Positions 20,191 to 57,681 of a stretch of DNA of 64,000 bases are shown piece by piece. The translations under genes were made by a program, and so were the position numbers. Source of the stretch: Mytilus trossulus. Taxonomy: Eukaryota. The DNA is taken from contig NC_086380.1 in assembly GCF_036588685.1 (NCBI RefSeq), forward strand, positions 55,118,001-55,182,000, written 5' to 3'. A model generated the notes under the pieces. The model was not told the origin of the DNA. It ran no database searches and saw only the letters and a program-made list of their open reading frames with translations. How positions within the stretch are numbered: position 1 is the stretch's first letter; each line of letters begins with the position of its first letter.

Positions 20191-20473
20191 ATCGAAAGTG
20201 AAAAAGGACACATTTTAATTTCATTCTTTGTAGGCACTAGTATATAATACAGTACAAAGATTTCGTCAACATATTTTATATTAAAATAAATATATCATTT
20301 ATAGTTCCTAAATTATAATTGAATATTTTTTAGTGTTTATCAATAGCATAAGCTAAACGAAAATCAGTATATTTAGATAACTCATTCGTCGAATTTGCTC
20401 GAGCAAAATGAACACTAGAACACATTCTTTAAAGAATATCAAAAAAAGAAAATAACTATTTTTGTAATTCCAG

Positions 20474-20965
20474 TATATTGTACACATGAAGTATTAATAC
20501 AAACATTCAACAGTGGGAATATCGATGCTTATTCAACACCAGATGTTTTTGATTACTATACAAACCTGTCGGAATACTACTTGTTCCCGTCCCGAAACCA
20601 GTTGATGAGGTTTAGAGTGGCTTGTAATGATGCATTTATCCTCTTATCATCTGCAGTCAACCTACAGTCTCAAGACTTTTATGAAATTTGTATTGGTGGA
20701 TCAAACAACAAAGTGACAAATATCCGTCGTAAATACAACACTGGGAACGTTCACCAGATTAATACAATTGATATTTTAAACTGTACTGAACAAAGAACAC
20801 TGATCGTGAGATGGATGCTCAATGGAGAAATAACCCTTCTTAAAGAAACCACTGGCGGAATGGAAATAGTAATGAAATGGACAGATCCCAACCCAATACC
20901 CATACATGGTGTCGGAATCATGACTGGATGGGGAGCAGATGGACTTTGGACTTTAGAACATTCAT
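20474..20965 (+). CDS. Paralog 1 exon 2: farnesoic acid O-methyltransferase-like (Methyltransf_FA) domain
   Basis: Acceptor ttccag| and donor T|gtaag. Contains the Methyltransf_FA hallmarks ACNDAFILLS, FYEICIGG..N...IRR, ILNC.E and WTDPNPIPIHGVGIMTGWGADGLW. Confidence 0.9.
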
Positions 20966-21220
20966 GTAAGCTGATCCATTCAAAATAAGATTGCATTATT
21001 GATTCATAATGTATATAACAAAAATTGAAGAAAAAAAATATTCAAAGTGGAACATCAAAAATCAGTTTAATTTCGAATTCAAATGCTCTCACACTTCAAG
21101 CAAATGATTAAAAATGATTATAGTGAAGATCTATAAAACAAGAAATACAATGTAGTTGAATTTGTTTGACCAAAGAAATATTTGATGAGTTATCAAATGT
21201 ACTAGGTTATTAAGCTGATA

Positions 21221-21262
21221 CGCAAGACGCGCGTTTTGTGTGTATAACACTCCTCAGTGACG
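21221..21262 (-). ncRNA. Minimal type I hammerhead ribozyme motif (near intact) in a ~360-bp Penelope/retrozyme-like repeat (~21188..21550)
   Basis: Minus strand reads CGUCA-CUGAGGA-GUGU(UAUAC)ACAC-AAA-ACGC GCGU-C-UUGCG, with a palindromic stem III and one core change GAA>AAA. Confidence 0.7.
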
Positions 21263-21637
21263 CTCAGATTAAAATTGTAACAAAAAACAAGTACAAAATT
21301 GTGCTAAATAGGACTAAAATAATATATTTCCTTTCAATAACTGTGTAATTGCAGACGGAATATAGGAAAACTCAAGATTTCTCCCAATATATGCCAACAA
21401 TTTAAAAGTTGTGCTTCATAGGGCTCAAATGATATATGCCTGAGATACAAAACAATCCTAAGTATTTGGAATAATTCATAATTTAGCAAATAGAAAATAT
21501 AAAAGTAACCATAAAATTAATATATATGTCAACACCGAAGTACTGACTACACAATGTAAACCTAAACAAAAAAAGTATATGTGTAGTCATATTTTATCAA
21601 TGTCATTACTTTAAAGGTGTTCTGTTTTTTATTTCAG

Positions 21638-21867
21638 CTTTCCTTATTGGACGTTATTGTGGTATTCCTACAACATACGGTAAAATGGTGTTACTTTCTA
21701 CTTCAATTAGTCTCAGTCGAATGAATTGTTTGTTCGAATGTTCACTGAACCGTGATTGTCTTGGAATCAACTTTAATAAGAAAACGAATGAATGCGAGTT
21801 TGTGTCTGTTGGACAGATTATTCATAAGTTCAATCGTCAGAATTGGTCATTCTTTACAGAGTGTTAA
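21638..21867 (+). CDS. Paralog 1 exon 3: PAN/Apple domain
   Basis: Acceptor tttcag|. Reads RYCG...CLFECSLNRDCLGINFNKKTNECE...WSFFTEC*: C-x3-C-x5-C...C core plus flanking Cys. Confidence 0.88.
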
Positions 21868-24800
21868 AACAGGTCTGTCCTGAATCAATGTTATAATTTA
21901 TAAATATCGGTAAATATTGATTGAACTATTTCATATTATAAAGCAAAGACATTGTCTTGTAAATAGAGGCCATAAAACAATGTAAACCATGATGACCCTA
22001 TATGTTTAGCATTATACTCCCTGTTGCTTGTTTAATTCATAAGATATATATCTAGAATACAGAAAAATCGTTTAAATTATATAACTTACAGGTCATAGGT
22101 CTAATGTCAAATATATATGTTTTTCAAAGTTAATAACTGTTTTATGACATGAAAGTTGGTGGTTTCTAATGGGGACTTATTGTGCGTTTTTTTTACGAAC
22201 GGGGTTTTGTATTGTTCTGATTTACACTTGTTGACTAAACTTTTTGTTCTCCGGTAAGAGACATCAATATGAGAAAATGAACCTATGAAGAAAATGTGGG
22301 TCAAACTACAGAAAAGCAACATTATGTTTTTAAGAAAAAACAGATTGTTTTTGATAATGCAATACACATATAATTTCAGGAAAAGTATAATAGGGTTTTA
22401 AAAATACACTGACTAAGAGTGTTTCGATTTACACAAAACAAAAAATATAAGCTGGATGCCATTGATGAATATGTAGATCAAATATGTAGATCGAGTATGC
22501 AGAACAGTTTTTATTTACACAGAAATTGACAAATATATATCCACTTTTGTGAACCTTTTTGCCCTAACACATGTGAATATAGGAATATATTATTTAACAA
22601 AGCTTTAGTTAAGCCTTCAGTGTGATTCAAATGTCTTGTTATAATTATCATAGATGGGGATATTAATTGAATTGATTATGAATGATAGAAGAATTAAAAG
22701 ATCAACAAAAATAAGTAAAAAAAGCGAAACTCTTTGTTTGAAAAGGAAAACCTTTCTGGTATCTGGAGAACAATATACTAAAATTGTATGCAAAATACAT
22801 GGAATAAAAATGAAAAGGTAGCTAGTAACATGATTATTTTCTAAATAGTCTAGATGTGAGACCAAGAATATTCAACACTGATGAAACTAATGCTATATTT
22901 CAATATTCACATTACTTAATGATTATATTAAAAATTCATCATTGTCAATGAAACTAAAGAAAATAATATTTCAAATTTAAGAACAGTATTCTTAACGAGA
23001 AATCATAAAAACTATAAATAAATACTTAGATAGACAGGATAAAGAAAAAAGGAAATAGAAATAGCAAAGCAATTGTGTCATGTGTGTGGGATCTGTTTAA
23101 AATAGAAGTTAGGTAGAAAAATATAGAACATTGTAAGTAATAAGGTAAACGTAAAAGAGACGGAAACCTGACAATAGAGGAATGTATAAAAACCTAATAA
23201 AACAACGGGTATTGATGGTCTCTCAATTGCAAGGTATATATCTGTTTGGTTCAACCTAAAAAACGTTGCTGCAGATGTTTTTAATCGTTACTTTGAGAAC
23301 ATAAAATCATAAAGATATAGATACTAGAATTAATTACCCTCATAACGAGGAAAAAAACCAACCCATTACATTGAGATAATGAAAGACCAAATAATTTACA
23401 AAATGAAGATATATAAAAACAGATATAATATTGGATTTATTATAGGCAAATCCAATGTATTATACTTACCCTTTCTGAGCACCTGAGATGACCCCTAGTT
23501 TTGGGTGGGGTTCGTGTTGTTTATTCTTTAGTTTTCGATGTTGTGTCAAATGTACTATTGTTTTTCTGTTTGTCTTTTTCATTTTTAGCCATGGCGTTGT
23601 CAGTTTGTTTTAGATTTACGAGTTTGACTGTCCCTTTGGTATCTTTGGTCCCTCTTTTATAGATTATTCGGAAATATTCATGAAGATGGAGCAATATAAT
23701 TTATAAAGTTTGCCTTGCTATAATGTAGATTTATGTATTGTTCTTTAAATTTGGATTGAATAAATATCCAGAGGCAATTAATATCATTATTTTAAAAATC
23801 TCATTGATAGCGAATATTCGTCATTTAACTGGAAAGTATTACCATAATTTACATAATACCGGCCTTATATCACTTTCTTAAAAATCATAAAACTCCGCTT
23901 TTCAATTAATGTAATGTCGTCGAAGAGTATGATAATTAAAAAAAAATGCAAAAACAAAAATCGAAAAAATTATCAACTCCAAGGAAAATTTAAAATGAGG
24001 AGTCCTTAATCAAATGGCAAAATAGAAATATGAAACATATCAAACGAATGGACAACAACCGTCAGATACCTGACTTGGTACAGGCATTTTTAAATGTAGT
24101 AAATCGAGGATTAAACTTGGTTTGATAGCGCTGACGCTCTCCAATATTGACAAAAATGAATGAACACAATAAACAGATACAATATGTGAAAAATCGCCTA
24201 TAGGGGTATTGCAGTAACACGAACCCAACCAAAAAGTGCAGGTGATCTCAAGTGAAAGGCTAAGCAGATTCATTTTGACATGTTTAACCCTTCGCATTGC
24301 TCATGCTAAAACAAAGCCTGTAAATAGTCTAACTCAGTAGGTCACATTCTTGAAAAGGGAACGTGATTGTAGAAACGCTTACGGAGCATATCCGATTTTC
24401 GTGATGGTGTCAGGAAAAGTTATAAAGTGATGATTTCTACTTTAATATTTTTTTTTTAATAAAAAAAACCTATTACTTGATTAACTTAAATAAGACATCA
24501 TATAATACCCCTAACATCATTGTATTTAGTACAAATATGTCACTGATTAACAAATACCATCAATCCAGTTACACATATATGTATATATAGTACTAGTACT
24601 TAATACGGCAGAGTTAAACATGTTAGCGGATATATTTTTTCTCATTTTTTGTACTTAAATTGAGTCGTAGCTGTTCTCGTTAAAAATGTTTTGCATTGCC
24701 ATTTTAGGTCATCTAATATGTGGTATGATATCAAAAAGAAGATATGGTATCATTGCCAATAAGACAACTATCCACACAAGATCAATGAGTTTTGCTCATT

Positions 24801-27373: not shown

Positions 27374-27545
27374 TCGGTTGATGAATGCCCAGTGGCAAGT
27401 ATTTCATTATAGTCAGGAGGATCAAAGATATAGATTTGTTAACTAATGTCCAGTCACAAATATTTCATTATATTCAGGATGATCAAAGATATAGATTGGT
27501 TGATTAATGTCAAGTGGCAAATATTTCATTATATTCAGGAGGATT
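27374..27545. repeat. ~58-bp tandem repeat x3
   Basis: Unit gattggttgattaatgtc(c/a)agtggcaaatatttcattatattcagga, repeated with variation. Confidence 0.85.
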
Positions 27546-30035
27546 CAAAACAAATATATGAAATACTGTTTAGATCTGATGAATACAAAATTTAAAAACA
27601 ATGTCCAGTATAGTTTTCTGTAGTTGCAAACTGATATGATGTAACTTTGTCAATATGACAATGTATTTAATTAACCTACTTTCATAAAAAGGTTTAAATA
27701 CCAAAAATATTTCAGACATTTAAAAATCCTATTTACATGTACCTTGTAGAATTATGTTTTTTTTTTGCTTATATGCCTGGCTTCAACCATGTGTGGTTGA
27801 GTACATGCTGATGTTATGTTGTCAATTGGCCTGAGGTTTGCTTGTTAGAGAACAACAACATGGCTGGCATGAGTCATTGCAAAGATTTTTTTTAATTCAG
27901 AAAGCAAATCAGTTTCAACCTAATGCATTATAATTAAATTAAGTCTCCATCCCCACTGGTCGTTTCTGCGTATTTATACACCCAACACAGTCAGAAGACA
28001 CCTCACTCTCTATAGTGGGTTTTAATACTAATGGAACGATTGAAATCAAGGTAATTTAAACTTATTGGGAGGAGAAATAAAGTTTGTGTCATGCATATTT
28101 TTAATTTACATATGTGCAATTTCTTTGATTTGATCCTTTACAAATGTTCTTTAAATTAAATGTATTTACGGGAAAGGTTGCTGCTTTTAATTAATAAGTT
28201 TGTAATTTTGATGGTCACTGTTGTACTTCAAATATAAATCTATGCAACAGAGGTATCAAATGATTACCAGCAATTGCCATTGTAAATTTGGTCACATTTA
28301 TTTATCAATAATTTATCTAACTCAAATATATTGAGACATATTATATGTTTTTTCAATAAATTATCGATATCAAATGGAAGCAAAAGGACTTAAGATCCAG
28401 CTAAAATATTAAAAACCGCCACATTCTGTATGTACGTACCTGTCCCAAGTCAGGAGCCTGTTATTCAGTATAGTTGTCGTTTGTCTATGACATACATGTT
28501 TGAATTTGTTCATTTTGTACACAAATTAGGTCGTTAGTTTTCTCGTTTAATTACATTGTCTTTTCAATGCCCTTTATAGCTTTCTATGCCGCGGTACATG
28601 CTTTGCTCATTATTGAAGGCTATACAGTGACCTATAGTTTTTAATTTCTGTGTCTCTTAACTTAGTTGGGAGAGTTATCTCATTGGCAATCATACCACAT
28701 CTTCCTTTTTATAATAAATATTTTTACAATTTTTGAACTACAAATCAAATAAAAAAAATAATTCTATTAATAATTAAAGGGCCCTTCGGTACATATTAAT
28801 TACAAACAAGAAAATAATAATAAAAAAAAAATACTTCTTAATATTAAATTGTTATTTGACAATTTACATAATTATATTCTTTTCTCTGATTTGCCTAGCA
28901 AATAATATAAACATTACGCCTTCTGTCATCTATTATATAATGCAGTTCATTGGGAATTATATTATGGTAGTTAACAAATATATGGAACTATATAGCTTTA
29001 ATTGTCCTGCCGACTCTGAATAAAGCTATTTTTATTTATTATCCCGCAAAGTGCCTCAATAGTTTTACCTGGAAAGGGAATTAACCCATATGTCTGAATT
29101 GCAAACCAACAGAAATTCTACACTGTCGATAATAGTTATCCTCGAGTGATTGCGAGTGAGTGATTATCAGTGTGAAGAGTATAATACTATATTTTTCTTC
29201 GTGAAGAAATTGAAACACAGTATTAAATAGAAAATAATTGTTAATCACCGATATCAAAGTTGTAAAATAGGAAGGCACTTCTACGGAGCGCCGATTTTAT
29301 AATTCCAATGAGAAAATATTTCATGTGGTTTGTAACGTCGTGAACGTTCACGGCTATCTTTTTTCTCCTTTTTTTAGACGAAACATACCATCTTTACCAG
29401 GGTCGCGCCTTGCTCATGTAGAATAGATCAACACATATCCAACATGATTTTACGGAGAAAATATTCTGGATTTTGGAAAAGTATGGATCCCCCCGTTATT
29501 TTTAGAAATAACACTTATTTTTGGCAAAAACATTAATAAAATGTCGTAAATATCTATAATTCCTTACCTTCTTCTACAATTTTACTCGAGATACTTACAA
29601 AATCAGATTCCTGGTTTATTTCTGCATTTGTGTGTCAATTTTCGTTGTCTGTTTACCTTTCTATAAATAGCGCGAGGAACGGAAAGGGTTAGCATTTGTC
29701 TGTCTCGATAGCTGAAAACTGACGTTTACGGCAACTCTTATCGTAGTTCAAAGATTTACTGCAAGCTAATATACACGTTGAAATATAAGATTATTACTGA
29801 AAAAAAGTCGAGTACACCTTTAACGGATATAGACGTATATTTTGCTTGTCCTGTTTTGAAGTTATATTTTTCTATTGGATTTGGATATTACCAGCCGGAA
29901 TAGTTAAAAACGCTTTCATAACAGTAATGTAAGTTTTATTACTGACATTTTTGCAAAAATAATGCCTTAATTTGATATTTGAGTGAACTTTACTTCTTCA
30001 TGTGTAAATATTGAGGTACGAAGAGGGATATTGTA

Positions 30036-30932
30036 ATGGAGAAATTACCAAAACCATTAGTTGCGCTTATTAACAGTATTGTAGACGAATATGAACATTT
30101 TAATTGGAATTCGAATTACTTAGGTGATAAAATGAGAATTTCGTTGATTTGGACCAGAGGTGAATATGTGAATACAAACAAAGGTGTAAAACACAAGTCG
30201 AAATCAAGTAAAGCCAGGGACACTAAACGGTTAAAAACGTGGCAAGATAAGAAAGAAAATTTACATAACGACGATGATATAGATACTAGTGATATAGATA
30301 CTGATAGTTCAGAGGAAGATATGAGCGAATCAAGTGATGAAAATCAACAAATCGACAAGGTAGATATCCCGCTGGTAACCCCCGAAAAAGTAAACATTAG
30401 ACCGGTTACGAAAATTACTCACCCGGTACGAGTGTCTATTAATAAGTCAATCAATAAAAACAATCATGAATCGCCACCAGAAAAAAGAGTGTGTCGTTGT
30501 TCGATATATGGAACGAGTGTGGAAGTTCAAAAACAAAGTGTACACACAAATATAAAGGAATGTGAACATGTAGAAATAGATGACGAAATAAAAACAGTCG
30601 CATCCAAATCGATAATAACCGGGAACAGTCCATGTAATGACAGCCACTATCAGAAAATAGTGTTTAATAGACGACCAGAAGGTGATATCGTGTTAGGAAA
30701 AATTAAAAAGAGAGATACATTAGTTATTTGTAATACAACAAAGAAGAAAATATATCATGTGAATCTTGATACGAACAAATCAGGTTATGAAGACACAATG
30801 TATTATATTAATAGATATAAAGATTTGAGAAAAACGGACGATGAAGAAATAAGTAGTTATGTTTTTCATGTTCCGAAATTAGAAAGATACGCGGAAGTTC
30901 ACAAACTTTGTCCGTGGTGTTTTTTGGAATGA
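30036..30932 (+). CDS. Intronless 298-aa protein of unknown function inside a poly(A)-tailed retroposed unit
   Basis: Longest ORF in an AT-rich window. Compact N-terminal region with a basic segment (KHKSKSSKARDTKR), an acidic tract, a linker, and a C-terminus ending HKLCPWC. No RT, endonuclease or transposase motif seen. Confidence 0.75.
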   Translation: MEKLPKPLVALINSIVDEYEHFNWNSNYLGDKMRISLIWTRGEYVNTNKGVKHKSKSSKARDTKRLKTWQDKKENLHNDDDIDTSDIDTDSSEEDMSESSDENQQIDKVDIPLVTPEKVNIRPVTKITHPVRVSINKSINKNNHESPPEKRVCRCSIYGTSVEVQKQSVHTNIKECEHVEIDDEIKTVASKSIITGNSPCNDSHYQKIVFNRRPEGDIVLGKIKKRDTLVICNTTKKKIYHVNLDTNKSGYEDTMYYINRYKDLRKTDDEEISSYVFHVPKLERYAEVHKLCPWCFLE

Positions 30933-31260
30933 ACAGTTATTTGGGGAAAAACCAAGATCCGTTTCATGCGTGAATTAACTCTTTAATTATATTGTTTATT
31001 ATGTATCAAAACTTAGGTTTGGAAACCAACCTATTTTTGTTAGGACTTAAAAATATTAGTTAAATATAACATTTGCGTATGCTAACATTTTGTGTATTTT
31101 TTTCTTGTAATAGTTCAAAGGCTATTTTATTGTTTTATATATAAAAAAGAAAATTTAAAAAAAAGGAAGTATATTCATACAATTAGTTTATCATAGGATA
31201 GATTGATTAAAAAAGTGACATTAATATAATCAGTTTGGTATATGAGAATTTGATGACTTA

Positions 31261-31357
31261 GAGTAAATGAGCGATTTGTTGAGTTGAGTAAATGAGCGAT
31301 TTGTTGAATTGAGTAAATGAGCGAGCTGTTGACTTAGAGTAAATGAGCGATTTGTTG
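31261..31357. repeat. 25-26 bp tandem repeat x4 (GAGTAAATGAGCGATTTGTTGA...) in the 3' UTR of the retroposed unit
   Basis: Units start at 31261, 31286, 31311 and 31337. Confidence 0.9.
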
Positions 31358-34300
31358 TTGTTGTTTTTTTCTTTTCAGGGAAAATGACAATAATTGACAT
31401 AAATGTTTGATATATGTGTAATTGTAATCTGTGATATGTATATAGAAGTGAAATTATAATAAAGATAAAAAAAAGGAAATTTAAAAAAAAAAAAAAAAAA
31501 ATAAAAAAAAAAAAAAAAAAAAAAATATTATTACTGAATTAAAAAGCGCAGATACTGTAGTTTCTCAAGCTATTTTTATTTATTTTTTACAGTGAGGGAA
31601 AAGTTGTTTATTTTGCAGTTACAAAAACGTTGCAAATGCGAAAAATGCATTGCGGCAGATATAGGTTTTTCAACGTGACGTTCCTACAGAGTCCCTACTT
31701 TTATATCCCATCAGGAAATTGAACTTTAGTTTATTTGGCAAACTTTTGACAGTACGCACAGTACTTGAGAGCTAGTTCAAAGCCACTTTCAACTTATAAC
31801 AGAATCCTGCATCTGAGACTTACTAATTAATCAGTACATATAAAAAAGCCAATGAATTGATTATAAAGAAGGCAAAACAATCATATGCAAACAGGACCTT
31901 GTGCAATGTCGAATACAGGTATCGACATATGGTAGATCCAGGAATGTCTCTCTCCATCCAAATAACAATTTATAAAACTAAACAATTATAGGTCAATGTA
32001 CGCATTCAACACGAAACCGTCGATAACAAAGAACAAACAGCTATTAAGGGCCCCAAAATCACTAGTGTAAACCCTTTCAAACGGGAAAACCAATGGTCTA
32101 ATATATATATAAAAAAAAAGAGACGAGAAGCACGTATGAATAACATAAACAAACGAAAAACTACTGTTAATCAGATTCCTGACTTCGGACAAGTGCAAAC
32201 ATTTACAGCGGGATTGCACGTTATTATAATGGTACCATACCTTGTCGCTTTTTCCGAATCAATAGTATAACATCACCACATAGAAAAACACACGATAAAA
32301 TATTAATTGGAAGGCTTAACTCAATCAAGAAACATAAATTAACCCATTATGAACGAATAAATTTGATCTGCGATACCTCAATGCAAATATATAGTTAAAA
32401 AAAAATATTCAGGACAAACATTTAAGGCCAAAAAGCAAACAAATCCAAACAAAGCAATAGCAATACACCATCGCGAAATATAAATACCTTACAAAATATT
32501 CACTATTGAAAAACAAATGGTTTCAAGATATTTTAAAGTAAATGAACAAACAATGTCGGTTTATGTATACAACTTCTGTGTTTATATCCAGAATTTATTT
32601 TTATCATCCCGCATAGTATCCAAAGTTTTAATTTCTTGTGTCTCAAGACCCCCACCTACTTACCATGGTGACGGTCATCATTCTAAAATGACATGTGAAC
32701 GTTCAATTGCAAGAGCCTGGCGCACCCCAAAGAACTAAACAAATAAATGAAAATAAAGTTTTGTTTAGTCGAAAAAGATGTTATGTATTCTGCTTCTTTA
32801 ATTTGCCTTTTTTATAATAAAAAATAACAGAAGTGACATCAAACTTTGGCCATAGCAAAAGTCAACTATCTTGTCATTTTTTAAAATGTTATATTTCTTT
32901 TAAAAAATAAAAACAGCAATCTTGATATTCATGAGCTTCACAAGAATAAGTATGCAAAGTTTTTCAGAGTTCAATAAATGTTAACGGGGTGTGCCAATGT
33001 GAATTATCATATGGATAAATGGTATTCAAATACTTAAGCCGCGACATTTAACACTGCATTGATGTAGATCGTTTATTCCCTTTTTCGATATAAAAATGAT
33101 GGGAGAGAAATAATCGACATTTTGATAGTTTTGTACTAGAAGTAGACATATTAAGGACATTAAATAATGTTATTATTTTCATTGTTATACTTGAGATGTT
33201 TATAAATCTTTAAAGAACCACCGTGTATAGTCTTTGAAGAGGAAAGGAGGGGGCACTATTACGTAATACGTTGTAAGAGCTATCGTAAGCCAATGTTCAC
33301 TTCTAACTGCACATATGCGTATATTCAAAATTTAGGGTATCTTTGACGAGTCCATACTTATATGAGCCGATAGCTAATACAATTTTCTTGTTTACTAATT
33401 TGAATTTGATTATCATTGGGTTTTAACGACTTGAACATTACCACGGTTTGGGATAGTAAAATAACGAGATGATCATAGACGACGAACCAGTATTTCTAAA
33501 ATTCCTGATAGGCAAAAAACACTAGTGCTTGAAATTAAAAGTATGAAACAACTTCTTTCAAACTCATGTTTCATAAGAATTATTAATCTGCTCAGTCCAG
33601 TTAAAGTTTTTTCAATGTTTTTATTTTTAAACATTTTATTTAGTTCACTGAATTGTCAGGATCAGAAACTGTCACATTACAGGTGTGAATGGGTCTTTTT
33701 TAAACTTTACCAGCTGTTAAAACGAATTTCTAGAGCTTGTTCATTTGTTAAACATACAAGACCTGTTGGTGACCTTCTGCTGTTTTTTTTTTCTTTCTTT
33801 GGTCGGGTTGTTGTCTCTTTGACACATTACCCATTTCCATACTCAATGTTATCCTTTATTAGTTATAGTCTTTAGTATAAAACAGTAAATACTCATAGAA
33901 AAAGTCATTACAAAAAAAGAAATTTCGTTTTTTTTTTAACTATTTGTTTATTCAATAAAGATGTATACATGAGAAAGCCTTGGTTTCATAATGTGTATTA
34001 TTTGCCTATCAAATACAAACATGTCTATTTCAAAATTTCAATGAAACAAATGAAATTTTTTCATCCATTTCAATTAGGTTTCTACAATTAAAACCAAAAA
34101 CATTGCATATAACTGATAATCCTTATCACAATGCAAACAATACTTTCTTGCTGGTTTCCATGGTCCATAATAAATATAGACAAATATCACCCTGCTGGTT
34201 TTCATATAATAATGTTGTATTTTTTTATTCCTAAACTTGTCTTTTAAATTATTTATGTTGCATGCAAAAAATATTCCTATATTCATGTAAAATGTGGTGA

Positions 34301-39320: not shown

Positions 39321-40751
39321 GTAAGTTTTTTTTTGTAGAATTTGCAAATGTTACATATACATGTTCTTCATCTTTGTTTGCCACTAATTGGTTAATAGTT
39401 ATTACTTGATAAGGATGCATATACATTTCATTTGTCGACGGAGTTTTAGGGAGTATGACCATTTAGTGCCGACAATCATCTCTTTTCAGAAAAAAAAAAA
39501 GAATTAAAAAGTTTAACGTATACGTGTTTTAGACGTTTGTGTTAAGTTAAACTTAATGGTTATAATACAAATTATTTAGTGCAAATGCTATGGTTGTAAT
39601 AGTAAAATATGCTGGTATTTGTTTTTCAATATTTTTATTTCAGACTATTCCGAGTTTAACACTACAGTTGTTAATGGTTTTTTGGAGACTTGATTTGAAA
39701 ATGCATTGGATATGTTATGTTGATGTTTAAAAAACATTAGTTTTCGTCAGATTCTGCATATAGTAAGACAAAATACAACGATTAAATGTACAGCTATAAT
39801 CTCTCGCCCCACTTTCATATGAGTTTCAATATATTATGAAGTTTTTGAATTTTCAATGGGGACGTCTCATGCGTCACTAAATGCAAATTTGTCTCTGTTT
39901 CATTGAGAGTAACAATGTCATCAAAGACAAATCAAAACAACATATGATACACAACTTTAATTATGACACTTTTCGATGTTTGGATACTATATCGGGTTTC
40001 CATAATGACGGATTAAGTATACCAAAGAGATATATCCTGCTTAAATGACTTTAAATACATCTTATTCTAACAATGAAATCTGCCCTTCGCAAGGTAAATT
40101 AAGTATCAATGTGTTTGTCTTGATAAAAATCATCAGGAAACAAGATGTTTATTAATTTTCAAGAAGACATATTCATCAGTTTAGCTACAGTCAAATCAAT
40201 TAAAAGCCGAAACAAGTTCAATGAATATTATTATATTTGGGAAATTAGTAGGTCTGGTATGGGCCGATTTTTGCATGGTTCGTCTGACGAAAGATGTAGT
40301 AATTCAAAGTGGTCCGATTCAAGCGTAGATAGGACAAATCTATCAAATATGCCGAAAAATCTCACTTTTCAGATGGTTTTTTTTGTGAAAAATGATATTG
40401 ACCCGTGTGTATCCTTAAGCATTACATATGGTATATATCATCATCAAATACAACTTATATTGTTATATTTGAATAGTAAAAATTACCAAATTCATTAAAA
40501 ACGGAAACTCGAAAATTACACTGAAATGTTTAAATTGTGTAAATTTCAGTAAGTTAACTGATTGCACGCAGTTAGTACCAGAAATATGTCAATTGTATTG
40601 TCAAAAAAAGATCATATTTATATAGCAGAAGTACTCTTCTTTCCAATGAATAGCTAAAAGTTTGAAACATTTATTTACAGACTGCTATTTGTAGAACCAA
40701 AAAGGTCTTACTGAACTTACTGTTCTCCTTTAAATTGATATATAATTCCAG

Positions 40752-41246
40752 CAAATGGTGCAGATGCAATATTAATACAAACCTTTAACAGTGGTAATAT
40801 TGATGCTGATTCAACACCAGATGTTTTTAATTATTACACAAATCTGTCCGAATACCACTTGTATCCGTCACAGAACAAGATGTTCAGGTTTGGAGTCGAA
40901 GCTTGTCATGATGCATTCATTCTGCTATCATCTGTAGTCAATCTACAGTCGCAAGACTTTTATGAAATTTGTATCGGTGGAACAGATAACACAGCGTCCA
41001 GCTTTCGTCGGAAGTACAACACTGGGAACACTCTTTTTATTTTTACACCAGAAATTTTAAACTGCACTGAAAAACGGACAATAACTTTGAAATGGACATT
41101 CAACGGAGAACTAACACTTCTTAAAGAAACTAATGGCGGAACGGAAGTAGTAATGACATGGACAGATCCCAACCCAATACCTATACATGGTGTCGGAATC
41201 ATGACTGGATGGGGAGCCGACGGACTTTGGACTATAGAATATCCGT
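40752..41246 (+). CDS. Paralog 2 exon 2: Methyltransf_FA domain
   Basis: Acceptor ttccag| and donor T|gtaag. Motifs FGVEACHDAFILLS, FYEICIGG and WTDPNPIPIHGVGIMTGWGADGLW. Confidence 0.9.
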
Positions 41247-41547
41247 GTAAGTTAACTAATTTGTATAATTGTATCATTAATTCATCGAGTTCGAGTAAGT
41301 TATAAAGTATCAGTGCCAAACCTTCAATTGTTGGTATTCTCTAACGTATATAAGTTAATCAGCGTGTTTTGGTTCACAATGATCGGTTTATAACATCACC
41401 ATCAGCTGTATATTGTTCAGTGACTGGAAGAACTCAATCAAAAATAGAGCATATACGTTGTTGTCTTCATTGACGGGTGTAAAACAATTCGTTATGTATT
41501 ATGGTAGGCCTATACTAATCTGTATAAGAGAAATAAGGATAGTTTAT

Positions 41548-41916
41548 TACGAGTTGGTTGACCGTTATGGAATAACCGTTTCACAAATGATATCGGATAT
41601 GTTCCTTACGTCGTAACTACAATCCCCTCCCCTTTCAAGAATTTGACCTACCGAATTAGACTCTTTACCGGATTTGTAATCACATAAGCAACACGACGGG
41701 TGCCGCATGTGGAGCAGGATCTGCTTACCCTTCCGGAGCACCTGAGATCACCCCTAGTTTTTGGTGGGGTTCGTATTGTTTATTCTTTAGTTTTCTATGT
41801 TGTGTTATGTGTACTATTGTTTTTCTGTATGTCGTTTTCATTTTTAGCCATGGCGTTGTCAGTTTGTTTTAGATTTACGAGTTTGACTGTCCCTTTGGTT
41901 TCTTTCGTCCCTCTTT
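41548..41916 (+). mobile_element. 3' end of a Penelope-like retroelement (family B) in intron 2 of paralog 2; further copies near 7775, 10777, 14040, 23465, 26645, 34690, 35600, 47000
   Basis: Translates ELVDRYGITVSQMISDMF, followed by the recurrent untranslated tail (ggagcaggatctgcttacccttccggagcacctgagatcacc). Confidence 0.7.
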
Positions 41917-42112
41917 TATTAATGATTTTGGTTTATTTCATATGAAAAACATTAAAACGAGACTATCAGGTTATCTTTCTTATGAACCTCATATCCGAAT
42001 ATTTGAAAGAAAATTAAGGATCTATAAAAAAAAAATATTTTACCAAAACGTTATATGTATGGTAAGAGGAAATCAATGCAATCATGTAAAGGTGTATCAT
42101 TTCATTTTTTAG

Positions 42113-42342
42113 CTTTCCTTATCGGACGTTTCTGTGGTATACCTACTACATATGGTAATATGATGTTACTTTCAACCTCAATTAAACGCAGTAGAATCAT
42201 TTGCGTGTCCATATGTTCTCCGAACCGTGCTTGCCTTGGAGTCAACTTTAATAAGGAAACACATGATTGCGAGCTTGTGTCTGGTGGACAGATAATCCAA
42301 ACCATCGGTCGTCAGGATTGGTCATTCTATACAAAATGTTAA
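42113..42342 (+). CDS. Paralog 2 exon 3: PAN/Apple domain
   Basis: Acceptor tttttag|, 230 nt as in paralog 1. Reads RFCG...CVSICSPNRACLGVNFNKETHDCE...WSFYTKC*. Confidence 0.88.
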
Positions 42343-44999
42343 ACCTAGTCTAGCCTTATTGTTTAAAACATTGGTAAACATTGCTTATTCATGTTATTGG
42401 AGGTTTTATCTTCTGTACAAGTGAAAAAAAATAGATAAGTTTAAATTGTAAAAGATGAAATTATAGCGTTCGTTTATTATTGTATTTTTACATGGAAAAA
42501 TATTAAAGTTTATTTAATTCGACCTTTGTGACTAAGAAAATAAAATGCTATCCCTTTTTTGCAGAGTGTTTTTTTTTATTTGTGTGATACCTATGACTTT
42601 GTTCTAAAAAATAAAAACATCAAATCGAATGTTAATGGTTTTTAATTATTTGTGACCTCCTAATCATAGTATAGATATATTAGGGGGGGGGGGGGAGAAA
42701 AGGAGACCTATTTATTTTAATATACATAAAAAGACACTGAGAACTGTATAATTAAACATTACTAAACATATTAATAAATTAGAAAGAAATATATATGAGT
42801 TACACATACAAATGGCAAGCATTTAAATGAAATACATCCCACGTATGTGTAAAAAATGTTAAACGTATTCAATATAAATGATTGCCATCTCTTCACGAGA
42901 GTTTAGTTGAAGAAGAAGTTGACACATTATAATCCAAACGTTTCGTGAATTTGCTTAAGTTATAATAATTTGAAAATCTGAAAGTTTATCAATGAATTAA
43001 GTATGTTTTAATTAGGTTCGATCAGTTCAAAAATGCGCACTTCTTCAAGTTCAAACTCCACTTTAGCATTGAATCGCACTAATAAATAGTTTATAAGAAC
43101 AACCTGATAGATTTTGTTTTTAAATATAGTATCGATGTTCAACCTAATTTTTCATAAACTTACAACTTTATTTGATCACTGAGACACCAACATACATGTA
43201 ACAAGAGGAAAACAATAATTACATATATACAAGCAATACAAAACAATGGAGGTCATAACAGGAGAAAATCAACATAAATACATTTTTCAACAAGATACGT
43301 ACGAGTAGAGTATGAATAATCGATCCATGTGATCATTAAACATATCGCAACATTTCCAACACAACAATTCATCTTAAATATGTACCATTTGTTCCAGTGT
43401 TAAGTGAACTCTGTTTCAAAGTAATTAACTTTCAAAACACTAGTTTATATTGATGAGGAATTAATAAAGATGGCTTATTATTATACATGTTAAAGAATTT
43501 CAAAAAGAAAAATGGGGGACACCGGGCAAATTTGTTCAAGGCATTCAAATGGACCAGAGGATTCCGACAATCTGACAAAAAAAAAACATGACAAGCCAGC
43601 TTCCTAAAACAAAAAATGAGAACTGAATAATATGTAGTAAACTCTCGATACCTTTACTTCAAAAGTATTTTATTGGAATATGTCGTTATTGAATTGTTTG
43701 TGCTCCTTCAGACATGTATCACAACTTATTTAGTGTAATGGAAAAGAAGATGTATGTTTGTATTGTTCACACATCGGTCTCAATATAATGGATATTGATG
43801 CAACTGTCATACAAGTAAGATGTGTATCGCTATAAAACCAAGTTTGATCCACCTTTTTCTAAATAAGATAGCCTGTATCAAGTCAGGAATATGACAGATC
43901 TTGTTATTATTTCGTTTGACGTGTTTAAACTTTTGATTTTGTCATTTACTAAGGGACTCTCCGTTTTGAACTTTCCTCGGGGTTCAGTATTTTTTTTTGT
44001 AATTTAACTTTCTTAACTAATGTTGAAACCAAACAGGCTCGTGAATGATTGAGATGATAATAGGAATGAAAATTATTAAGAAATCAATTTCGATAAAATT
44101 GTATAAAGCTTTGATTATGACTGATTTATCTGTGCTAAAAAATAAACAGTGGACAAAATAAAAATAAAATATCATCTCAAAATCACAATTGTAGAAAATG
44201 TGTTCACTAATCTTAAACTAGTTACATGCATCACAAATGCAAAAAGTAAGATTTGAAAATTTCCAAAAATTACAGGGTTTGCTACAGTACGAGTTTATAA
44301 CAGTATGACAATCATTTGTTTTTCAAATGCAAATGAAAATGAATTACCCGTATTTAATCGACGCATACGTTACTAAAACACGTCAAAACATTTTAGATCT
44401 ATATAGTTTGTGTCAGTTTATTAGTTTCTGTTTATTTTGGTGTTTAATCTCGAAATTAATGTTTTTAATTGATTTTGTTCAATAAAAATCTTAGAATTTG
44501 AAGATTCTATACATTTTAATATCGAATTGAAACAAAAGTTTAAGTCGATACAATCAATACTTTTACTAGTATTTGTCTCGACGCCTGGAAATTGTTTTAA
44601 AAATTATTTCAAATTGTATTATCATATTGTTAATAATTATGCAGTTTTAAATGTTAAAAGCTTTTTTGCGCTAAACAATATATGACTAGTCATTTTGATA
44701 TTTGCTCATGTAATAGCGGATATAACCTAGAGTGTTCACAAGTAATAACTAAATTAACAAAATCTAACATTATATGTATCTTCTTTGTCAAAATTAAAAG
44801 GATAACAAATATTTAATTGAAAAATAAACCATCGAAATATTATATTTTGAAATCGGAATTTTGAAATCGGAACAATATTAATATATTTTTAATTGAATCT
44901 TTTCTACGTCATCGTTATCAATTATACATAACAAATATTCCGTGTAAATACATTTTTTAGGAGATGAGATTTATAAGCCATACATTTGCTCTACAAAAT

Positions 45000-46097: not shown

Positions 46098-47589
46098 GTC
46101 TTGGGTTGGAATCATATTTGTAGAGGTATAGTGGCTAGCATGCTAGCCTCATATTTGACTGATCGGGTTTTTATTCCTGCTCAGGTCTAACCAAAGAGGT
46201 TAATCATTCGCTTATATTAGCAAATAGTATATGGGATCAGAAAATATACAGGGTGGCTGGGAGAAATGGGAAATCTCACTTTTAAAGTTGGTCTACTAAT
46301 AATAAATCATAGAAATTTTGGTTAAAATGAATTTTACTTATTTTGGAATTTTAGGAGAAACAAATTGGAGTCACTGATGGGGTTAATAAGTAGGATCCAA
46401 TTTATGTTATCAAATATACTAGTAACTCGTTTTTGTCATATCACACCTTAGAAATTGCTCACAACACCAAGTCATGTAATACGCTTCTTTTCCACTCAGG
46501 ACCAAGTTGGGACCAATCGGTTTTATTTTTTGCCTATCATGTTGCAGAAGGTTAATATTGTAGGCACAAGAAAATTACTGATATTGTGTATTTTTATTAC
46601 ATAGCAGGTTCATCTCAAGCCGCTGAATAAAAGAAAAGTATCGCTACTTGATCATGTTGATATAACGAAACAAAATGCTTATAATTGAATGGTACTTTCA
46701 AAATGTCAAAAACAGTAATAAATCAAGACATTTTAATTATCGCACAAAGCTTTTCCGGCGTACGTATTGTAGTTCCGAACACTGGTTAGCTCATCTATGG
46801 ACCAAGATCATCTTATCCTTTAGCCCTCTTGTTCGCATTGATTTACATAATTTGGTAACCTCCACACCCAATGATTGAAACTGTTTGGGACTTGAATCTT
46901 TCGTTTTATTTTATTTCCGTTTCTTTGTTCGAATGACACTTTTAGCTACGAACCATTTTCTGCTCCTGCCTGCATTTCATTTAAAGCCTTTTGTTTTTTG
47001 CCTTTTTCGTTCTTAGCCATGGCGTTGTCAGTTAGTTTTAGATTTATGAGTTTGACTGTCCGTTGGGTATCTTTAGTCCCTCTTTTATGCGTTCAATGTA
47101 TATGTTACAACGTCTTTTGATTGAGTGAAGCCATTCAAATTGATATTTGATAATGCATCTTTCTAAGTTGTGATGTTATACTATTGTTTCATGTTATAAA
47201 GACGGTTTAGTATATTCAAAAGGTGTAATTCAGCAATATGATGTTCAGTTGTTGTCGTTTGTTGGTGTTGTTTATAAATGTTTCTCATTTCTCGGTTTTT
47301 TATATTGATTAGACAGTTTGATTTACCTATTAAAAGGATTTACACTAGTAATGTTTTGGAGCCCTTTATATCTTGCTTTTTGGTGTGAACCAAGGCTCCG
47401 TGTTGAAGACAGTACATTGACTTTTACCTTTACTGTGACGTAAATTTAGAATTGTCTCACTTGCACTTATAACACATCTTCCTATGCGTGTATATTATAC
47501 ATTATAATTATCGAACACTAATTGTGCATCTACTTATTTCATAGTATTTTTGAAAACCGTTCTTACACATTAAGAGTTTTTAATTGTAG

Positions 47590-48072
47590 ATGAAATTCGA
47601 ATCAGAACCCTGAACGCGGGAAACACTGATTCGAATACGAATCAACATATTTTTGAGGACTACACAAGCCTATCCGATTACCATATTTTTCCCTCAGAAA
47701 AAGAGTTCGTCAGGTTTACCATTGAAACTTGTCATGACGCCTTTATTCTTTTATCTGCTGCAATTGACCTTGAGTCACATGACTTTTATGAAATATGTCT
47801 CGGTGGATCAAATAATCAAGAGACATATATACGTCGAAAATATAATGATGCTAACCCATTCAAGATTTCAACACCTGACATTTTGGGCTGCACAGGGAAA
47901 AGCACATTTGAAATAAGATGGTCAAAGGAAGGAACAATACATCTCGCCAAAGAGTCAGCAGTTGGGATGGAAACAATAATAGACATGAAAGATTCTACCC
48001 CATTACTCATTCAGGGGGTCGGGATCATGACTGCATGGGGATCCGACGGCATTTGGATTTTTGAATCTGCGA
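47590..48072 (+). CDS. Paralog 3 exon 2: Methyltransf_FA domain
   Basis: Acceptor ttgtag| and donor A|gtaagt. Open frame DEIRIRTLNAGN...FTIETCHDAFILLS...FYEICLGG...GVGIMTAWGSDGIW; the ORF track captured only the last 65 aa. Confidence 0.9.
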
Positions 48073-48515
48073 GTAAGTAAACCAATCTTATGTTTTCTTA
48101 TCAACTGAATGTTGTGTATGACAAATTATGCAAATTATTAAATGTGTCTTAAAAACGAGATAAAGTAATTTAATGTAGTGCATTTGAGTATGTTGGATGA
48201 ATAGATAATACACTGAAATTAAAAAGAAAATGAAACGTTTCGTTCGCTGTATAGATACTACACTGAAAATAAAAAGGAAACGATAAGTCAAATCATCTTC
48301 ATCTTACTTATTTGACGTTGGAATGTAGTCGGTAATATTCTCACATATTGATTGGTTGATTGATTAGCAAAGCTACTTTCGTTCTGTTTGTATAATAAAT
48401 AATATTCAAGATAAAATATGTACCAGAATTATTAAGAAACTGAGACTGTCAGTGGTTCTATCATTAGGGCGTATAGTCTGAAGTGTTTTAATTTTTAGAA
48501 CGTATTTAAAACTTT

Positions 48516-48517
<2 letters not shown>

Positions 48518-48546
<29 letters not shown>
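48518..48546. repeat. (TA)n microsatellite
   Basis: Read directly from the sequence. Confidence 0.95.
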
Positions 48547-48552
<6 letters not shown>

Positions 48553-49108
48553 TCGACAATGATTAAAACCCGATTAACATAGAAAGCCACAAAATCCCTA
48601 CTATGAAAAAGATTTTTTTTTTAAATCATGCGAACAATCTGACGGCCTGATTTATGTAGAAAAAAAACAAACGAAAAACAACATGATTAGTAAATACTCA
48701 TACAATCTATTGTTAACGTCCATTTTATAATCAACATGTGAATGATTTTTCAACAAGTTATTCGTCAAGTTCATTTGCTAACCCAATAAACATTATATGA
48801 GAAAGACGCATATACCTGGATAACATAAAATGCCTTCTATTCATCAGAACTTTGACAAACAGATTTAAATGATTATTTCAACCAACATGTTTGTTATCTT
48901 CAAATTATAGATTGTCGCAAAACGATCGACACAAGCTCATTGCAGCCTTTTTCTTAACACAATATTAATTAGTTAGATGAAATTCCTCGCCGTTGTTATT
49001 CCTTTTTAGCATCGAAACACTTTCAGAAGTAAACACATATTAAAGCATATACATAAAAAATTACTGTAAGTATTTAATTCTAACGTGGTCTATTTTTGTA
49101 TCCTCTAG

Positions 49109-49338
49109 AAATGTTTGGCGGACTTTTTTGTGGAGTTCCTTCAACGTTCGGTAGTATGAACTTACTTCCGATATCAGTAAAGCGCAGCAGAATTGCATGT
49201 TTGTTTAAATGTTCACCAAATAGTGCTTGTCATGGAGTCCACTTTAATGAGGAAACCAATGAATGTGAACGTGTGTCTGTAGGACAAGTCATCGATCAGT
49301 CCACCCGTTCCGGTTGGTCATTATATACAAAATGTTGA
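49109..49338 (+). CDS. Paralog 3 exon 3: PAN/Apple domain
   Basis: Acceptor ctctag|, 230 nt. Reads LFCG...CLFKCSPNSACHGVHFNEETNECE...WSLYTKC*. Confidence 0.88.
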
Positions 49339-53407: not shown

Positions 53408-53827
53408 TGATATAGGAAGATGTGGTGTGAGTGCCAATAAGACAACTCTCCATCCAAATAACAATTTAAAAAGTAAACCATTATAGGTTAAAGTACGGCT
53501 TTCAACACGGAGCCTTGGCTCACACCGAACAACAAGCTATAAAGGGCCCCAAAATTACTAGTGTAAAACCATTCAAACGGGAAAACTAACGGTCTAATCT
53601 ATATAAACAAAACGAGAAACCAGAAACACGTATATATTACATAAACAAACGACAACTACTGTACATCAGATTCCTGACTTAGGACAGGTGCAAACATTTG
53701 CAGCGGGATTAAACGTTTTAATGGATCCAAACCTTCTCCCTTTTTCTGAAACAATAGTATAACATCACAACATAGAAAAACTTACAATAAAAAATCAATT
53801 GGCAGACTTAACTAAATCAAAAAATCT
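53408..53827 (+). mobile_element. Dispersed repeat family A, young copy
   Basis: gatataggaagatgtggtgtgagtgccaat...; absent from the sister duplicate (empty site aacatctgtatg at ~52224). Confidence 0.85.
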
Positions 53828-56187: not shown

Positions 56188-56410
56188 GTTTGCACATAAC
56201 GTAACTGTTGTTTAGACATAACGTAAAGGTTTTTGCACCTAATGTAAAAGATGTTTAGACATAATGTAATAGGCATTTTGACATAATGTAATAGGCATTT
56301 TGACATAATGTAATACGCATTTGCACATAGCGTAATCGTTGTTTGCACATAATGTTAAGGGTATTTGCACATAACGTAATATCATTTGCACATAACGTAA
56401 TCGTTGTTTT
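56188..56410. repeat. ~21-22-bp minisatellite (GCACATAAYGTAA core), about 10 units
   Basis: Read directly from the sequence. Confidence 0.85.
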
Positions 56411-56511: not shown

Positions 56512-57272
56512 TACTAAATTATAATCCTGGCATCTTTGATAACTATTTGCACATAATTTTAAGGTTTATGTACCCTTCTGTAGTCATTTTTTACGAACTT
56601 TTCAAACCTAAATTGTATCAAAACTACAGATATAATGAATAATATAGATAGGCCATTTAGTACATATTCCAAGGGGAATTTTGATGCAAAGCATTATTTT
56701 TTAATGTTTCATTGTATTTTAAAGAAAAGGAGGACTTTGTTAGATGTATGAGGCCACGAATCGCCATCGAAAATGTTAACTAGTTCGTTTTTACATTATT
56801 TAAGATGTATGTTTATGGTGGTAAGTAAGTTGTTACATGTATATGTACTGGTATTTCATTACCAAAACAAAGAATTTCAAATAGTACTATTGTAGTCATT
56901 ATTAGTATTGATTTTTTTTTATTAATGTTTATGTACTTTGACGAAGACATATGTTTCTAATACAGATAAAGTGATAATAAAACATTTATTTTAAGTCTAT
57001 AACATGAAATGATAAAGAACTAGAAAAATCCTCATTATCTAATTGTATTGATTCATTCCCCTTTCGAAGACGCAGAAACATATTTTCATAGAGCTGTCCC
57101 ACAAAAGAAAACCTGAGTAAATACTGCTTCATTCCTTATTTTGGTGGACATTCATTATTAATATAACCAATTATGTAATATTGATAATATGTATTTATAA
57201 ATATTTACAACACTTTTTAAATATAATAGAGGCACATTCATTCTTAGTATGCGTTTTAGATGACTTTTGTGG

Positions 57273-57681
57273 GAGTTAAGTCTGCCAATTGATATTTTCT
57301 CGTATGTTTTTCTATGTTGTGATGTTATGCTATTGTTTCAGAAAAAGGGAGAAGGTTTGGGCCCATTAAAACGTTTAATCCCGCTGCAAATGTTTGCACC
57401 TGTCCTAAGTCAGGAATCTGATGTACAGTAGTTGTCGTTTGTTTATGTAATATATACGTGTTTCTGGTTTCTCGTTTTGTTTATATAGATTAGACCGTTG
57501 GTTTTCCCGTTTGAATGGTTTTACACTAGTAATTTTGGGGCCCTTTATAGCTTGTTGTTCGGTGTGAGCCAATGCTCCGTGTTGAAGGCCGTACTTTAAC
57601 CTATAATGGTTTAATTTTTAAATTGTTATTTGGATGGAGAGTTGTCTCATTGGCACTTACACCACACCTTCCTATATCTAT
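57273..57681 (-). mobile_element. Dispersed repeat family A, young inverted copy (others at 901, 25857, 31945, 47100 rc, 49870)
   Basis: Near-identical reverse complement of 53408..53820. Confidence 0.85.

What the first reader, a model, noticed from the sequence alone, without database searches (positions are those of the whole stretch)
29787..31538. RT-less, single-ORF, poly(A)-tailed retroposed unit inserted in the cluster
Seen: an intact intronless 298-aa ORF, a 3' UTR minisatellite, AATAAA about 20 nt before a ~43-nt genomic poly(A), and a 15-bp direct repeat with one mismatch at both ends. Known: these are signatures of target-primed reverse transcription. The protein shows no RT, endonuclease or integrase motifs, and I cannot match it to a host gene; it has a small N-terminal domain with a basic helix, an acidic tract and a terminal H-x2-C-x2-C. 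Inference: a young non-autonomous retroelement encoding its own (possibly RNA-binding, ORF1-like) protein and mobilised in trans, rather than a processed pseudogene. Caveat: a TATA-like ctataaatag at ~29661 and GC-richer DNA from ~29060 could mean the true 5' end lies further upstream.
Basis: partly seen in the sequence, partly recalled or inferred. Interest (0 to 1): 0.75.

Follow-up and report, generated by a model that had tools for sequence, protein, structure and literature searches.

The report
RT-less mussel retroelement with orphan gene
A 1.7-kb stretch of mussel DNA, with a poly(A) tail and the same 12 bases at both ends, carries one conserved gene of no recognised family and no reverse transcriptase; it is likely a young copy of an old, low-copy family of jumping genes that would borrow reverse transcriptase from LINE elements.

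Summary
The anatomy is real: an intact 298-aa ORF, a 3' minisatellite, AATAAA, a 43-nt poly(A) and an exact 12-nt direct repeat (15 with one mismatch) around 29802-31526. The window is Mytilus DNA. Contigs from 3 of 4 public runs leave the window at the last base of the left repeat (one of them one base later), so the unit behaves as a discrete insertion and the upstream TATA-like word lies outside it. The protein belongs to an orphan two-domain family: 21 Mytilus gene models in at least four coexisting lineages, under purifying selection (dN/dS 0.29 to a 46% relative that also shares the 5' leader and the last 100 nt). No Pfam, PDB or fold match; the H-x2-C-x2-C motif is not conserved. Best reading (0.5): a non-autonomous, protein-coding retroelement family moved in trans by a LINE, working like HAL1/HeT-A but with a protein not recognisable as ORF1. 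Not shown: target duplications at other copies, the empty site's sequence, the partner LINE, RNA binding. Rivals: retrocopy of a host intronless gene family (0.27); 3' accessory gene of a Tx1-type LINE (0.18; one gene model joins RT to this ORF).

The parts
29790..29801 (+). Left copy of the target-site duplication (12 nt exact; 29787-29801 with one mismatch)
   Evidence: contigs of runs X1, X6 and X5 stop matching at 29801, 29801 and 29802 (table 8)
29802..30035 (+). 234-nt non-coding 5' leader, conserved in relative L001; candidate internal promoter or recognition element (inferred)
   Evidence: three sub-stretches score above random window stretches at fractions 0.0005, 0 and 0.002 of 2000; alignment; no coding likeness to the RT of P0027; no Rfam family or unusual fold
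30036..30932 (+). Single intact ORF, 298 aa, orphan two-domain family
   Evidence: dN/dS 0.29 against L001
30036..30266 (+). N-terminal domain, residues 1-77: predicted helix, two strands, then a basic helix with the family motif K-S-x5-R-D-x2-R
   Evidence: alignment; models (mean pLDDT 80.7, pTM 0.40 alone)
30270..30602 (+). Acidic, poorly conserved linker, residues 79-189, predicted disordered
   Evidence: pLDDT under 50; dN/dS 0.42
30633..30905 (+). C-terminal domain, residues 200-290: predicted four-strand meander plus two helices
   Evidence: pLDDT over 90; best structural Z 4.2, rmsd 2.8, 58 aligned; dN/dS 0.21
31248..31357 (+). 3' UTR minisatellite, 25-nt unit x 4.3; one unit shorter in a contig of run X6; not present in L001
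   Evidence: (record 24, 25 gap letters)
31377..31474 (+). Conserved 3'-terminal ~100 nt, ending in AATAAAGAT plus an A run, shared with L001
   Evidence: blastn 72% over 105 columns, E 1.3e-5; 0 of 2000 random stretches score as high
31483..31525 (+). Genomic poly(A) tail, 43 nt with one T
31527..31538 (+). Right copy of the target-site duplication

Best explanation
The 1725-nt unit at 29802-31526 carries one intact orphan ORF, a poly(A) tail and a 12-nt direct repeat at both ends, has no RT or endonuclease, and is likely a recent copy of an old, low-copy family of non-autonomous, protein-coding retroelements that would be reverse-transcribed in trans by a poly(A)-priming LINE, probably of the L1/Tx1 group. 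Shown: anatomy, discrete left junction, dispersed relatives in several lineages, shared leader and 3' end with a 46% relative, purifying selection on two domains. Inferred: a source copy is transcribed as a ~1.5-1.7-kb polyadenylated RNA from a promoter in or just before the conserved leader; a LINE ORF2 nicks an AT-rich site, primes on the poly(A) and leaves the duplication; new copies then decay while the lineage stays under selection. Least certain step: the protein acts on its own RNA or on the LINE particle (basic N-terminal helix for nucleic acid, C-terminal domain for a partner protein) and so raises its own copying, as proposed for the ORF1 of HAL1 and HeT-A.
For: TPRT marks beyond chance. 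Contigs from 3 of 4 runs match the upstream DNA and stop matching at 29801/29802 while running on for 146, 29 and 22 further letters (table 8, records 4, 22, 11). Closest contigs differ less from the unit than from its flanks: X1 6/1279 vs 21/1459 (p 0.011), X7 12/1087 vs 14/464 (p 0.015), X5 4/773 vs 9/1007 (p 0.41). 4 of the 5 listed ORF differences to reads are non-synonymous, and at these the close Mytilus relatives mostly carry the reads' residue, never the window's; the window's terminal branch is 0.068 against 0.012 for its sister: decay after insertion. Lineage-level dN/dS 0.29, 0.21-0.22 in the domains. ORF uninterrupted in DNA contigs of near-identical and 87-88% copies and called whole in unnamed collections on contigs of 0.5-2.1 Mb. 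39 of 48 unnamed full-length relatives lie on contigs of at most 2.1 kb, median 1548 nt, the size of the unit and not of a LINE. Tx1 LINEs occur in bivalves (PMC10294476, passages).
Against: No second copy with its own target duplication was seen: L001 ends 12 nt after its A run, shows no duplication and may be RNA-derived. The letters beyond the junction contigs were not displayed, so the empty site is inferred. Depth over the unit is of the same order as over unique flanks, so near-identical copies are few. Lower divergence in the unit could also be selection on an allele at the same locus, and one of three runs gave no significant difference. 4 of 5 is a small count from a truncated table, and the differences could include assembly errors. 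Contigs in these collections are short in any case. L001 runs 72 nt further 5' than the shared leader, so the family's true 5' end is not fixed. Nothing links the protein to ORF1, to RNA or to a LINE protein. One gene model places an RT upstream of a relative.
Confidence: 0.5

Rival explanations
1. Ordinary retrocopy of a host gene: the family is a lineage-restricted, intronless, well-expressed host multigene family, and this copy is a young processed pseudogene or retrogene of one member. The protein serves the host, not the copying.
For: Low copy number; purifying selection and conserved UTR ends are also what host paralogs show; AATAAA 19 nt before the tail fits normal mRNA cleavage; two M. 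galloprovincialis copies with consecutive accessions on one scaffold suggest tandem duplication; relatives' contigs with fold-back chimeras and transcript-like lengths suggest abundant RNA (inference). Precedent: bivalve nAChR genes expanded by retroposition and tandem duplication (PMC6896357, abstract); mussel has many taxonomically restricted expanded families of unknown function (PMC7653742, passages).
Against: No intron-bearing form seen in any DNA contig laid over the ORF; no signal-peptide-like or known host domain in 22 members; copies dispersed over many scaffolds with several broken models; non-coding conservation is concentrated in the leader and the last 100 nt while the first part of the 3' UTR is not above chance (fraction 0.10), a pattern expected of cis-acting ends.
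Confidence: 0.27
2. The ORF is an accessory gene at the 3' end of an autonomous Tx1/L1-type LINE; this unit is a 5'-truncated copy, or the copy of a subgenomic RNA started in the spacer after ORF2, and some lineages have become free-standing.
For: M. edulis model P0027 (CAG2191756) has RVT_1 (E 1.5e-10) and zf-RVT (E 7.4e-6) followed by 260 residues 98% identical to family member P0026, so an RT lies upstream on the same strand at one locus; the Tx1/L1 label is my reading of the domain order and is recalled. Two unchecked earlier notes report extra ORFs on mussel LINEs.
Against: 1 of 21 Mytilus models only, and the join removes the first 29 residues, as a predicted intron between neighbours would. 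The 234-nt leader has no likeness to that RT. A profile search of 570-2000-aa proteins found 0 of 6377 candidates (weak, it did not return P0027 either). Only 6 of 48 unnamed contigs fall between 2.1 and 10 kb.
Confidence: 0.18
3. The unit is an internal part of a larger DNA element or an assembly product, and the 12-nt repeat is chance; the outer exact 18-nt repeat (29023-29040, 31567-31584) marks the real ends.
For: The 18-nt repeat is exact; the region 29041-29801 has diverged paralogs in the runs (records 5, 11, 12).
Against: Contigs stop matching at the inner repeat; L001 shares only the inner unit; exact 18-mers more than 200 nt apart occur in 17 of 112 other 3-kb stretches of this window; the ORF is covered by near-identical contigs in three DNA runs.
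Confidence: 0.05

Closest known systems
ORF1-present non-autonomous LINEs: HAL1 (from L1), HeT-A (from Jockey), Ag-Sponge (from CR1) (PMC5786205, PMC5753468, PMC3627910; passages read)
   Same: One ORF, no RT or endonuclease, coding capacity kept over long times, dependence on a LINE in trans (the last inferred here).
   Different: Their protein is the ORF1p of a known LINE clade and their ends come from that LINE. Here no ORF1-type family or fold was matched in any search, and no parent LINE could be identified.
Sadhu retroposons of Arabidopsis (PMC1401498; abstract and section headings only)
   Same: Low-copy non-autonomous non-LTR retroposon family without a small-RNA head.
   Different: Sadhu is described as non-coding; this unit keeps a protein under purifying selection.
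Retroposed intronless gene families of bivalves, e.g. nAChR (PMC6896357; abstract)
   Same: Intronless, multi-copy, spread by retroposition and tandem duplication in molluscs.
   Different: Those have known host functions and intron-bearing parents; none was found here.
Tx1/L1-clade LINEs of bivalves (PMC10294476; passages)
   Same: Poly(A) tail and a 12-15-nt duplication fit L1-group chemistry (recalled knowledge); one gene model has such an RT upstream of a relative.
   Different: The unit has no ORF2 and is about a quarter of a LINE's length.

Membership tests
TPRT (LINE-machinery) insertion | Short direct repeat at both ends | tested here: met
   12 nt exact, chance fraction 0.0001-0.0034
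TPRT (LINE-machinery) insertion | Genomic 3' poly(A) directly before the right repeat | tested here: met
   31483-31525, then 1 nt, then the repeat
TPRT (LINE-machinery) insertion | Empty site with one copy of the repeat | tested here: inconclusive
   contigs of 3 of 4 runs stop matching at 29801/29802, but the letters that follow were not displayed
HAL1 / HeT-A / Ag-Sponge type | Single ORF, no RT or endonuclease | tested here: met
HAL1 / HeT-A / Ag-Sponge type | Coding capacity kept under selection | tested here: met
   dN/dS 0.29 over 279 codons against L001
HAL1 / HeT-A / Ag-Sponge type | Protein is the ORF1p of a LINE clade | tested here: inconclusive
   no Pfam family in more than 1 of 22 members at E<=0.1; PDB profile best E 0.24; best Z 4.2 (rmsd 2.8, 58 aligned) and 3.2 (rmsd over 9, 61 aligned)
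HAL1 / HeT-A / Ag-Sponge type | 5' and 3' ends derived from an autonomous LINE | not testable with these tools
   no Mytilus genome held; no DNA of the P0025/P0027 LINE found
HAL1 / HeT-A / Ag-Sponge type | Dispersed copies, each with its own tail and duplication | tested here: inconclusive
   dispersed gene models; the only other DNA, L001, has an A run but no visible duplication
Autonomous Tx1/L1 LINE | APE-RT ORF2 inside the element | tested here: not met
   tblastn of P0027 on the window hits only the ORF part; RT part best E 1.7 elsewhere
Processed pseudogene or retrogene | Intron-containing host parent | tested here: inconclusive
   no intron in contigs over the ORF, near-identical or 87-88%; whole genome not available
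SINE | Non-coding, head derived from a small RNA | tested here: not met
   298-aa ORF under selection; Rfam best E 3.4, far below gathering

The most novel reading that the evidence does not exclude
Mussels carry an old class of free-standing retro-parasites built around their own orphan gene, not around a LINE ORF1: several lineages, down to about 20% identity, each keep a two-domain protein that captures or steers the LINE retrotransposition complex for the RNA that encodes it. The gene may have begun as a 3' accessory gene of a Tx1-type LINE and become independent through its subgenomic RNA.
Probability: 0.3. Interest if true: 0.75.

Novelty: new variant of a known kind. Interest (0 to 1): 0.52.

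Why it matters
The protein-coding non-autonomous LINEs named in the papers read all encode a recognisable ORF1p taken from their partner. A family that keeps an unrelated protein under selection would show another way to parasitise LINE machinery and supply two domains without a matched fold as candidate retrotransposition helpers. It would also reclassify at least 21 Mytilus 'uncharacterized' gene models as mobile elements and offer a concrete mechanism for part of the mussel's gene presence-absence variation, where the role of transposable elements was left open (PMC7653742, passages). If the host-gene rival holds, it is an ordinary young retrocopy of an orphan family.

Tried and rejected
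Whole-genome search: no genome held. Related DNA: 1 locus among 172 pattern matches in metagenomes; none in viral contigs (0 of 46, 0 patterns, 0 of 10) or prokaryote genomes (0 of 11, 0 of 34). Function by homology: Pfam, PDB sequence profile, ESM Atlas whole protein (best 0.78, short unrelated clusters, one with a 15% Retrotrans_gag share; below the usable level) and N-domain (no hit), Foldseek PDB and viral (0 at E<=0.001), VIA-align wide (0 chains at Z>=5). The L1 ORF1p coiled coil at rank 3 (Z 3.2, rmsd 9.3) is tied with unrelated coiled coils and was rejected. These blanks do not show a new fold. Zinc-binding His/Cys motif: not conserved. Ribozyme or structured RNA in leader or tail: Rfam nothing near gathering; folding z between -0.77 and +0.42. 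Odd N- and C-termini of JGI relatives looked like 5'-truncation junctions, but most map to the reverse strand or another frame of L001 itself, so they were dropped as evidence. Upstream TATA-like word as part of the unit: rejected. Outer 18-nt repeat as element ends: not exceptional. A bacterial promoter scan is irrelevant to this organism and was not used. Self-association of the N-terminal domain was not predicted. Earlier scan notes: no look-alike by sequence, place or words.
Full report
Observation. The ORF runs 30036-30932 and gives 298 residues without a break. A 25-nt minisatellite of 4.3 units lies at 31248-31357 and a 43-nt A run with one T at 31483-31525; AATAAA begins at 31458. The direct repeat is exact over 12 nt, at 29790-29801 and 31527-31538, and occurs nowhere else in the window; an anchored match of that length arose in 0.0001 to 0.0034 of random draws, depending on the stretch searched. 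The insertion proper is 29802-31526. It lies between exons of a tandem cluster of farnesoic-acid O-methyltransferase-domain genes (PF12248; exon blocks near 20.5-21.9 kb and 40.7-42.4 kb). The best named protein matches are Mytilus, up to 98% over 69% of the query, so the window is mussel DNA. No genome was held.

Is it a discrete insertion? Logan contigs of four runs were laid on 27500-33000 (the tables are truncated, 32 of about 89,000 pieces shown). In three runs a contig matches the DNA upstream of the unit and stops matching at the end of the left repeat: X1 record 4 (29272-29801, 146 letters left over), X6 record 22 (29598-29801, 29 left over) and X5 record 11 (29331-29802, an 86% paralog, 22 left over). 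No such record is listed for X7. The leftover letters were not displayed, so the empty site is inferred and not read. The only related DNA found, L001 (1551 nt, 46% protein identity), resembles the window from about 29807 onward and not before: the upstream flanks score at the level of random stretches (fraction 0.60) and the three leader parts far above (0.0005, 0, 0.002). The TATA-like word at 29661 therefore belongs to the target. This boundary is set by the window's own junction; L001 has 72 nt more at its 5' end, so the family's 5' end is not fixed.

Age of this copy. Taking the closest listed contig for each part, the unit differs from the runs less than its flanks do: X1 6/1279 against 21/1459 (p 0.011), X7 12/1087 against 14/464 (p 0.015), X5 4/773 against 9/1007 (p 0.41). 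I left out the diverged records (X1 5, 7; X5 10, 11, 12, 14; X7 25, 32) and run X6. Five ORF positions appear among the 40 differences shown; four change the residue, and none of eight close Mytilus relatives has the window's residue at them. The window's terminal branch is 0.068 against 0.012 for its sister. This fits a recent copy decaying after insertion, but the count is small and assembly error is not excluded. Summed contig depth over the unit (X1 32-122, X5 278-890, X7 49-612) is of the same order as over unique flank (45-162, 412-633, 53-141), against 1e5-1e6 at neighbouring repeats. Depth is no copy number, but hundreds of near-identical copies are unlikely.

The family. phmmer over 1.84 billion representatives gave 38 proteins at E<=0.001. 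Haplotype duplicates may inflate these counts. A tree of 36 rows shows at least four well-supported lineages that hold Mytilus sequences. One distant lineage has copies with 272-278 of 279 residues identical on three M. edulis scaffolds and two consecutive identical models on one M. galloprovincialis scaffold. Against L001, dN/dS is 0.29 overall, 0.22 and 0.21 in the two domains, with dS about 1.5 (a rough Nei-Gojobori estimate near saturation). L001 also shares the last 100 nt up to AATAAAGAT and the A run (E 1.3e-5; 0 of 2000 controls), while the first part of the 3' UTR is not above chance (0.10). L001 shows no target duplication, ends 12 nt after its A run and may be RNA-derived: odd ends of its near relatives are mostly fold-back pieces of the same sequence. 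Of 48 unnamed full-length relatives, 39 lie on contigs of at most 2.1 kb, 21 at 1.4-1.7 kb, 6 at 2.1-10 kb and 3 above 100 kb; this suggests a free-standing unit of about 1.5 kb but is weak, since such contigs are short anyway.

The protein. AlphaFold2 on 22 sequences gives an N-terminal part (helix, two strands, basic helix, residues 1-77), a disordered acidic linker (79-189) and a confident C-terminal domain (200-290, pLDDT over 90). The invariant residues are K32, K54, S55, R61 and D62. No Pfam family is shared by two members, the PDB profile search gives E 0.24 at best, and five fold searches give nothing above background. H-x2-C-x2-C is in 3 of 22 rows and is not a family feature. A role in binding nucleic acid rests only on the conserved basic helix and on analogy.

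The RT neighbour. M. edulis model P0027 has RVT_1 and zf-RVT and then residues 30-289 of a family member at 98%. The join drops the ORF's start, as a predicted intron between adjacent units would. It shows one locus with an RT upstream on the same strand, 1 of 21 models. The window's leader has no likeness to that RT, a search of longer proteins found nothing (weak), and no DNA of that LINE could be fetched. Two earlier scan notes on mussel LINEs with extra ORFs are unchecked leads for this rival.

Mechanism. Most likely (0.5) a source copy makes a polyadenylated RNA of 1.5-1.7 kb; a LINE ORF2, probably of the L1/Tx1 group given the tail and duplication length (recalled knowledge; Tx1 is reported in bivalves, PMC10294476), copies it into an AT-rich site; new copies decay while the lineage is selected because the protein helps its own RNA through the LINE particle. 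The anatomy, the junction, the dispersion and the selection are shown; transcription from the leader, the partner and the protein's role are inferred. Rivals: retrocopy of a host intronless family (0.27), 3' accessory gene of a Tx1-type LINE (0.18), larger DNA element or artefact (0.05).

Comparison and novelty. It works like the ORF1-present non-autonomous LINEs HAL1, HeT-A and Ag-Sponge, whose proteins are thought to multimerise with those of the autonomous partner (PMC5786205, passages; PMC5753468, passages; PMC3627910, passages). Membership is not established, because the defining ORF1 identity and the LINE-derived ends are inconclusive or untestable here. Bao and Jurka 2010 was not held and is known to me only through these citations. 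PMC4494074 (passages), PMC7653742 (passages), PMC6896357 (abstract) and PMC1401498 (abstract and headings) gave context. Ten literature searches, seen as listings, returned no description of such a mussel family; I read no supplements, and Repbase, Dfam and the repeat libraries of PMC10294476 could hold it as an unclassified repeat. Verdict: a real young retroposed copy of an old orphan family, probably a new variant of the protein-coding non-autonomous retroelement; interest 0.52.

Noticed in passing
window 29023-29040 and 31567-31584: Exact 18-nt repeat enclosing the unit plus 761 nt on the left and 28 nt on the right. The left part has 86-89% paralogs in public runs, a CpG observed/expected of 1.29 and a TATA-like word, so the target may itself be a low-copy repeat or a promoter. 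Exact 18-mers are common in this window (17 of 112 3-kb stretches).
   Followed up: partly
window 29929-29946; L001 near 190-210: The best-conserved leader block holds a splice-donor-like GTAAGT and a branch-point-like TACTGAC (motif names recalled) that can also pair as a short hairpin in both sequences; folding is not above shuffles.
   Followed up: partly
window 31355-31379: Strong splice-acceptor-like pyrimidine tract ending exactly where the 3'-terminal likeness to L001 begins; a contig of the possibly-RNA run X6 covers 31157-31347 unspliced.
   Followed up: no
window 31139-31164 and 31465-31490: An A-rich stretch inside the 3' UTR matches the start of the tail at 24 of 26 positions; possibly an earlier tail or a short duplication.
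   Followed up: no
window 20465-21880, 40743-42356, 47577-49352, 58309-58816: Four paralogous PF12248-type exon blocks, 66-81% alike; the block at 58.3-58.8 kb aligns in two frames with a shift near 58548, so it looks broken.
   Followed up: partly
window 53409-53822 and 57265-57678: 414-nt inverted pair, 96% complementary, 3.4 kb apart, made of a high-copy repeat; a 22-nt minisatellite (56176-56409) lies between.
   Followed up: no
proteins P0055, P0059, P0094, P0095, P0101, P0103, P0104, P0105 against L001: Their foreign-looking ends are inverted pieces of the same element: fold-back chimeras in the assemblies, which can be mistaken for truncation junctions.
   Followed up: yes
window 29041-30932: CpG observed/expected is 1.2-1.4 over target, leader and ORF against 0.46 in the 1.5 kb upstream.
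   Followed up: no
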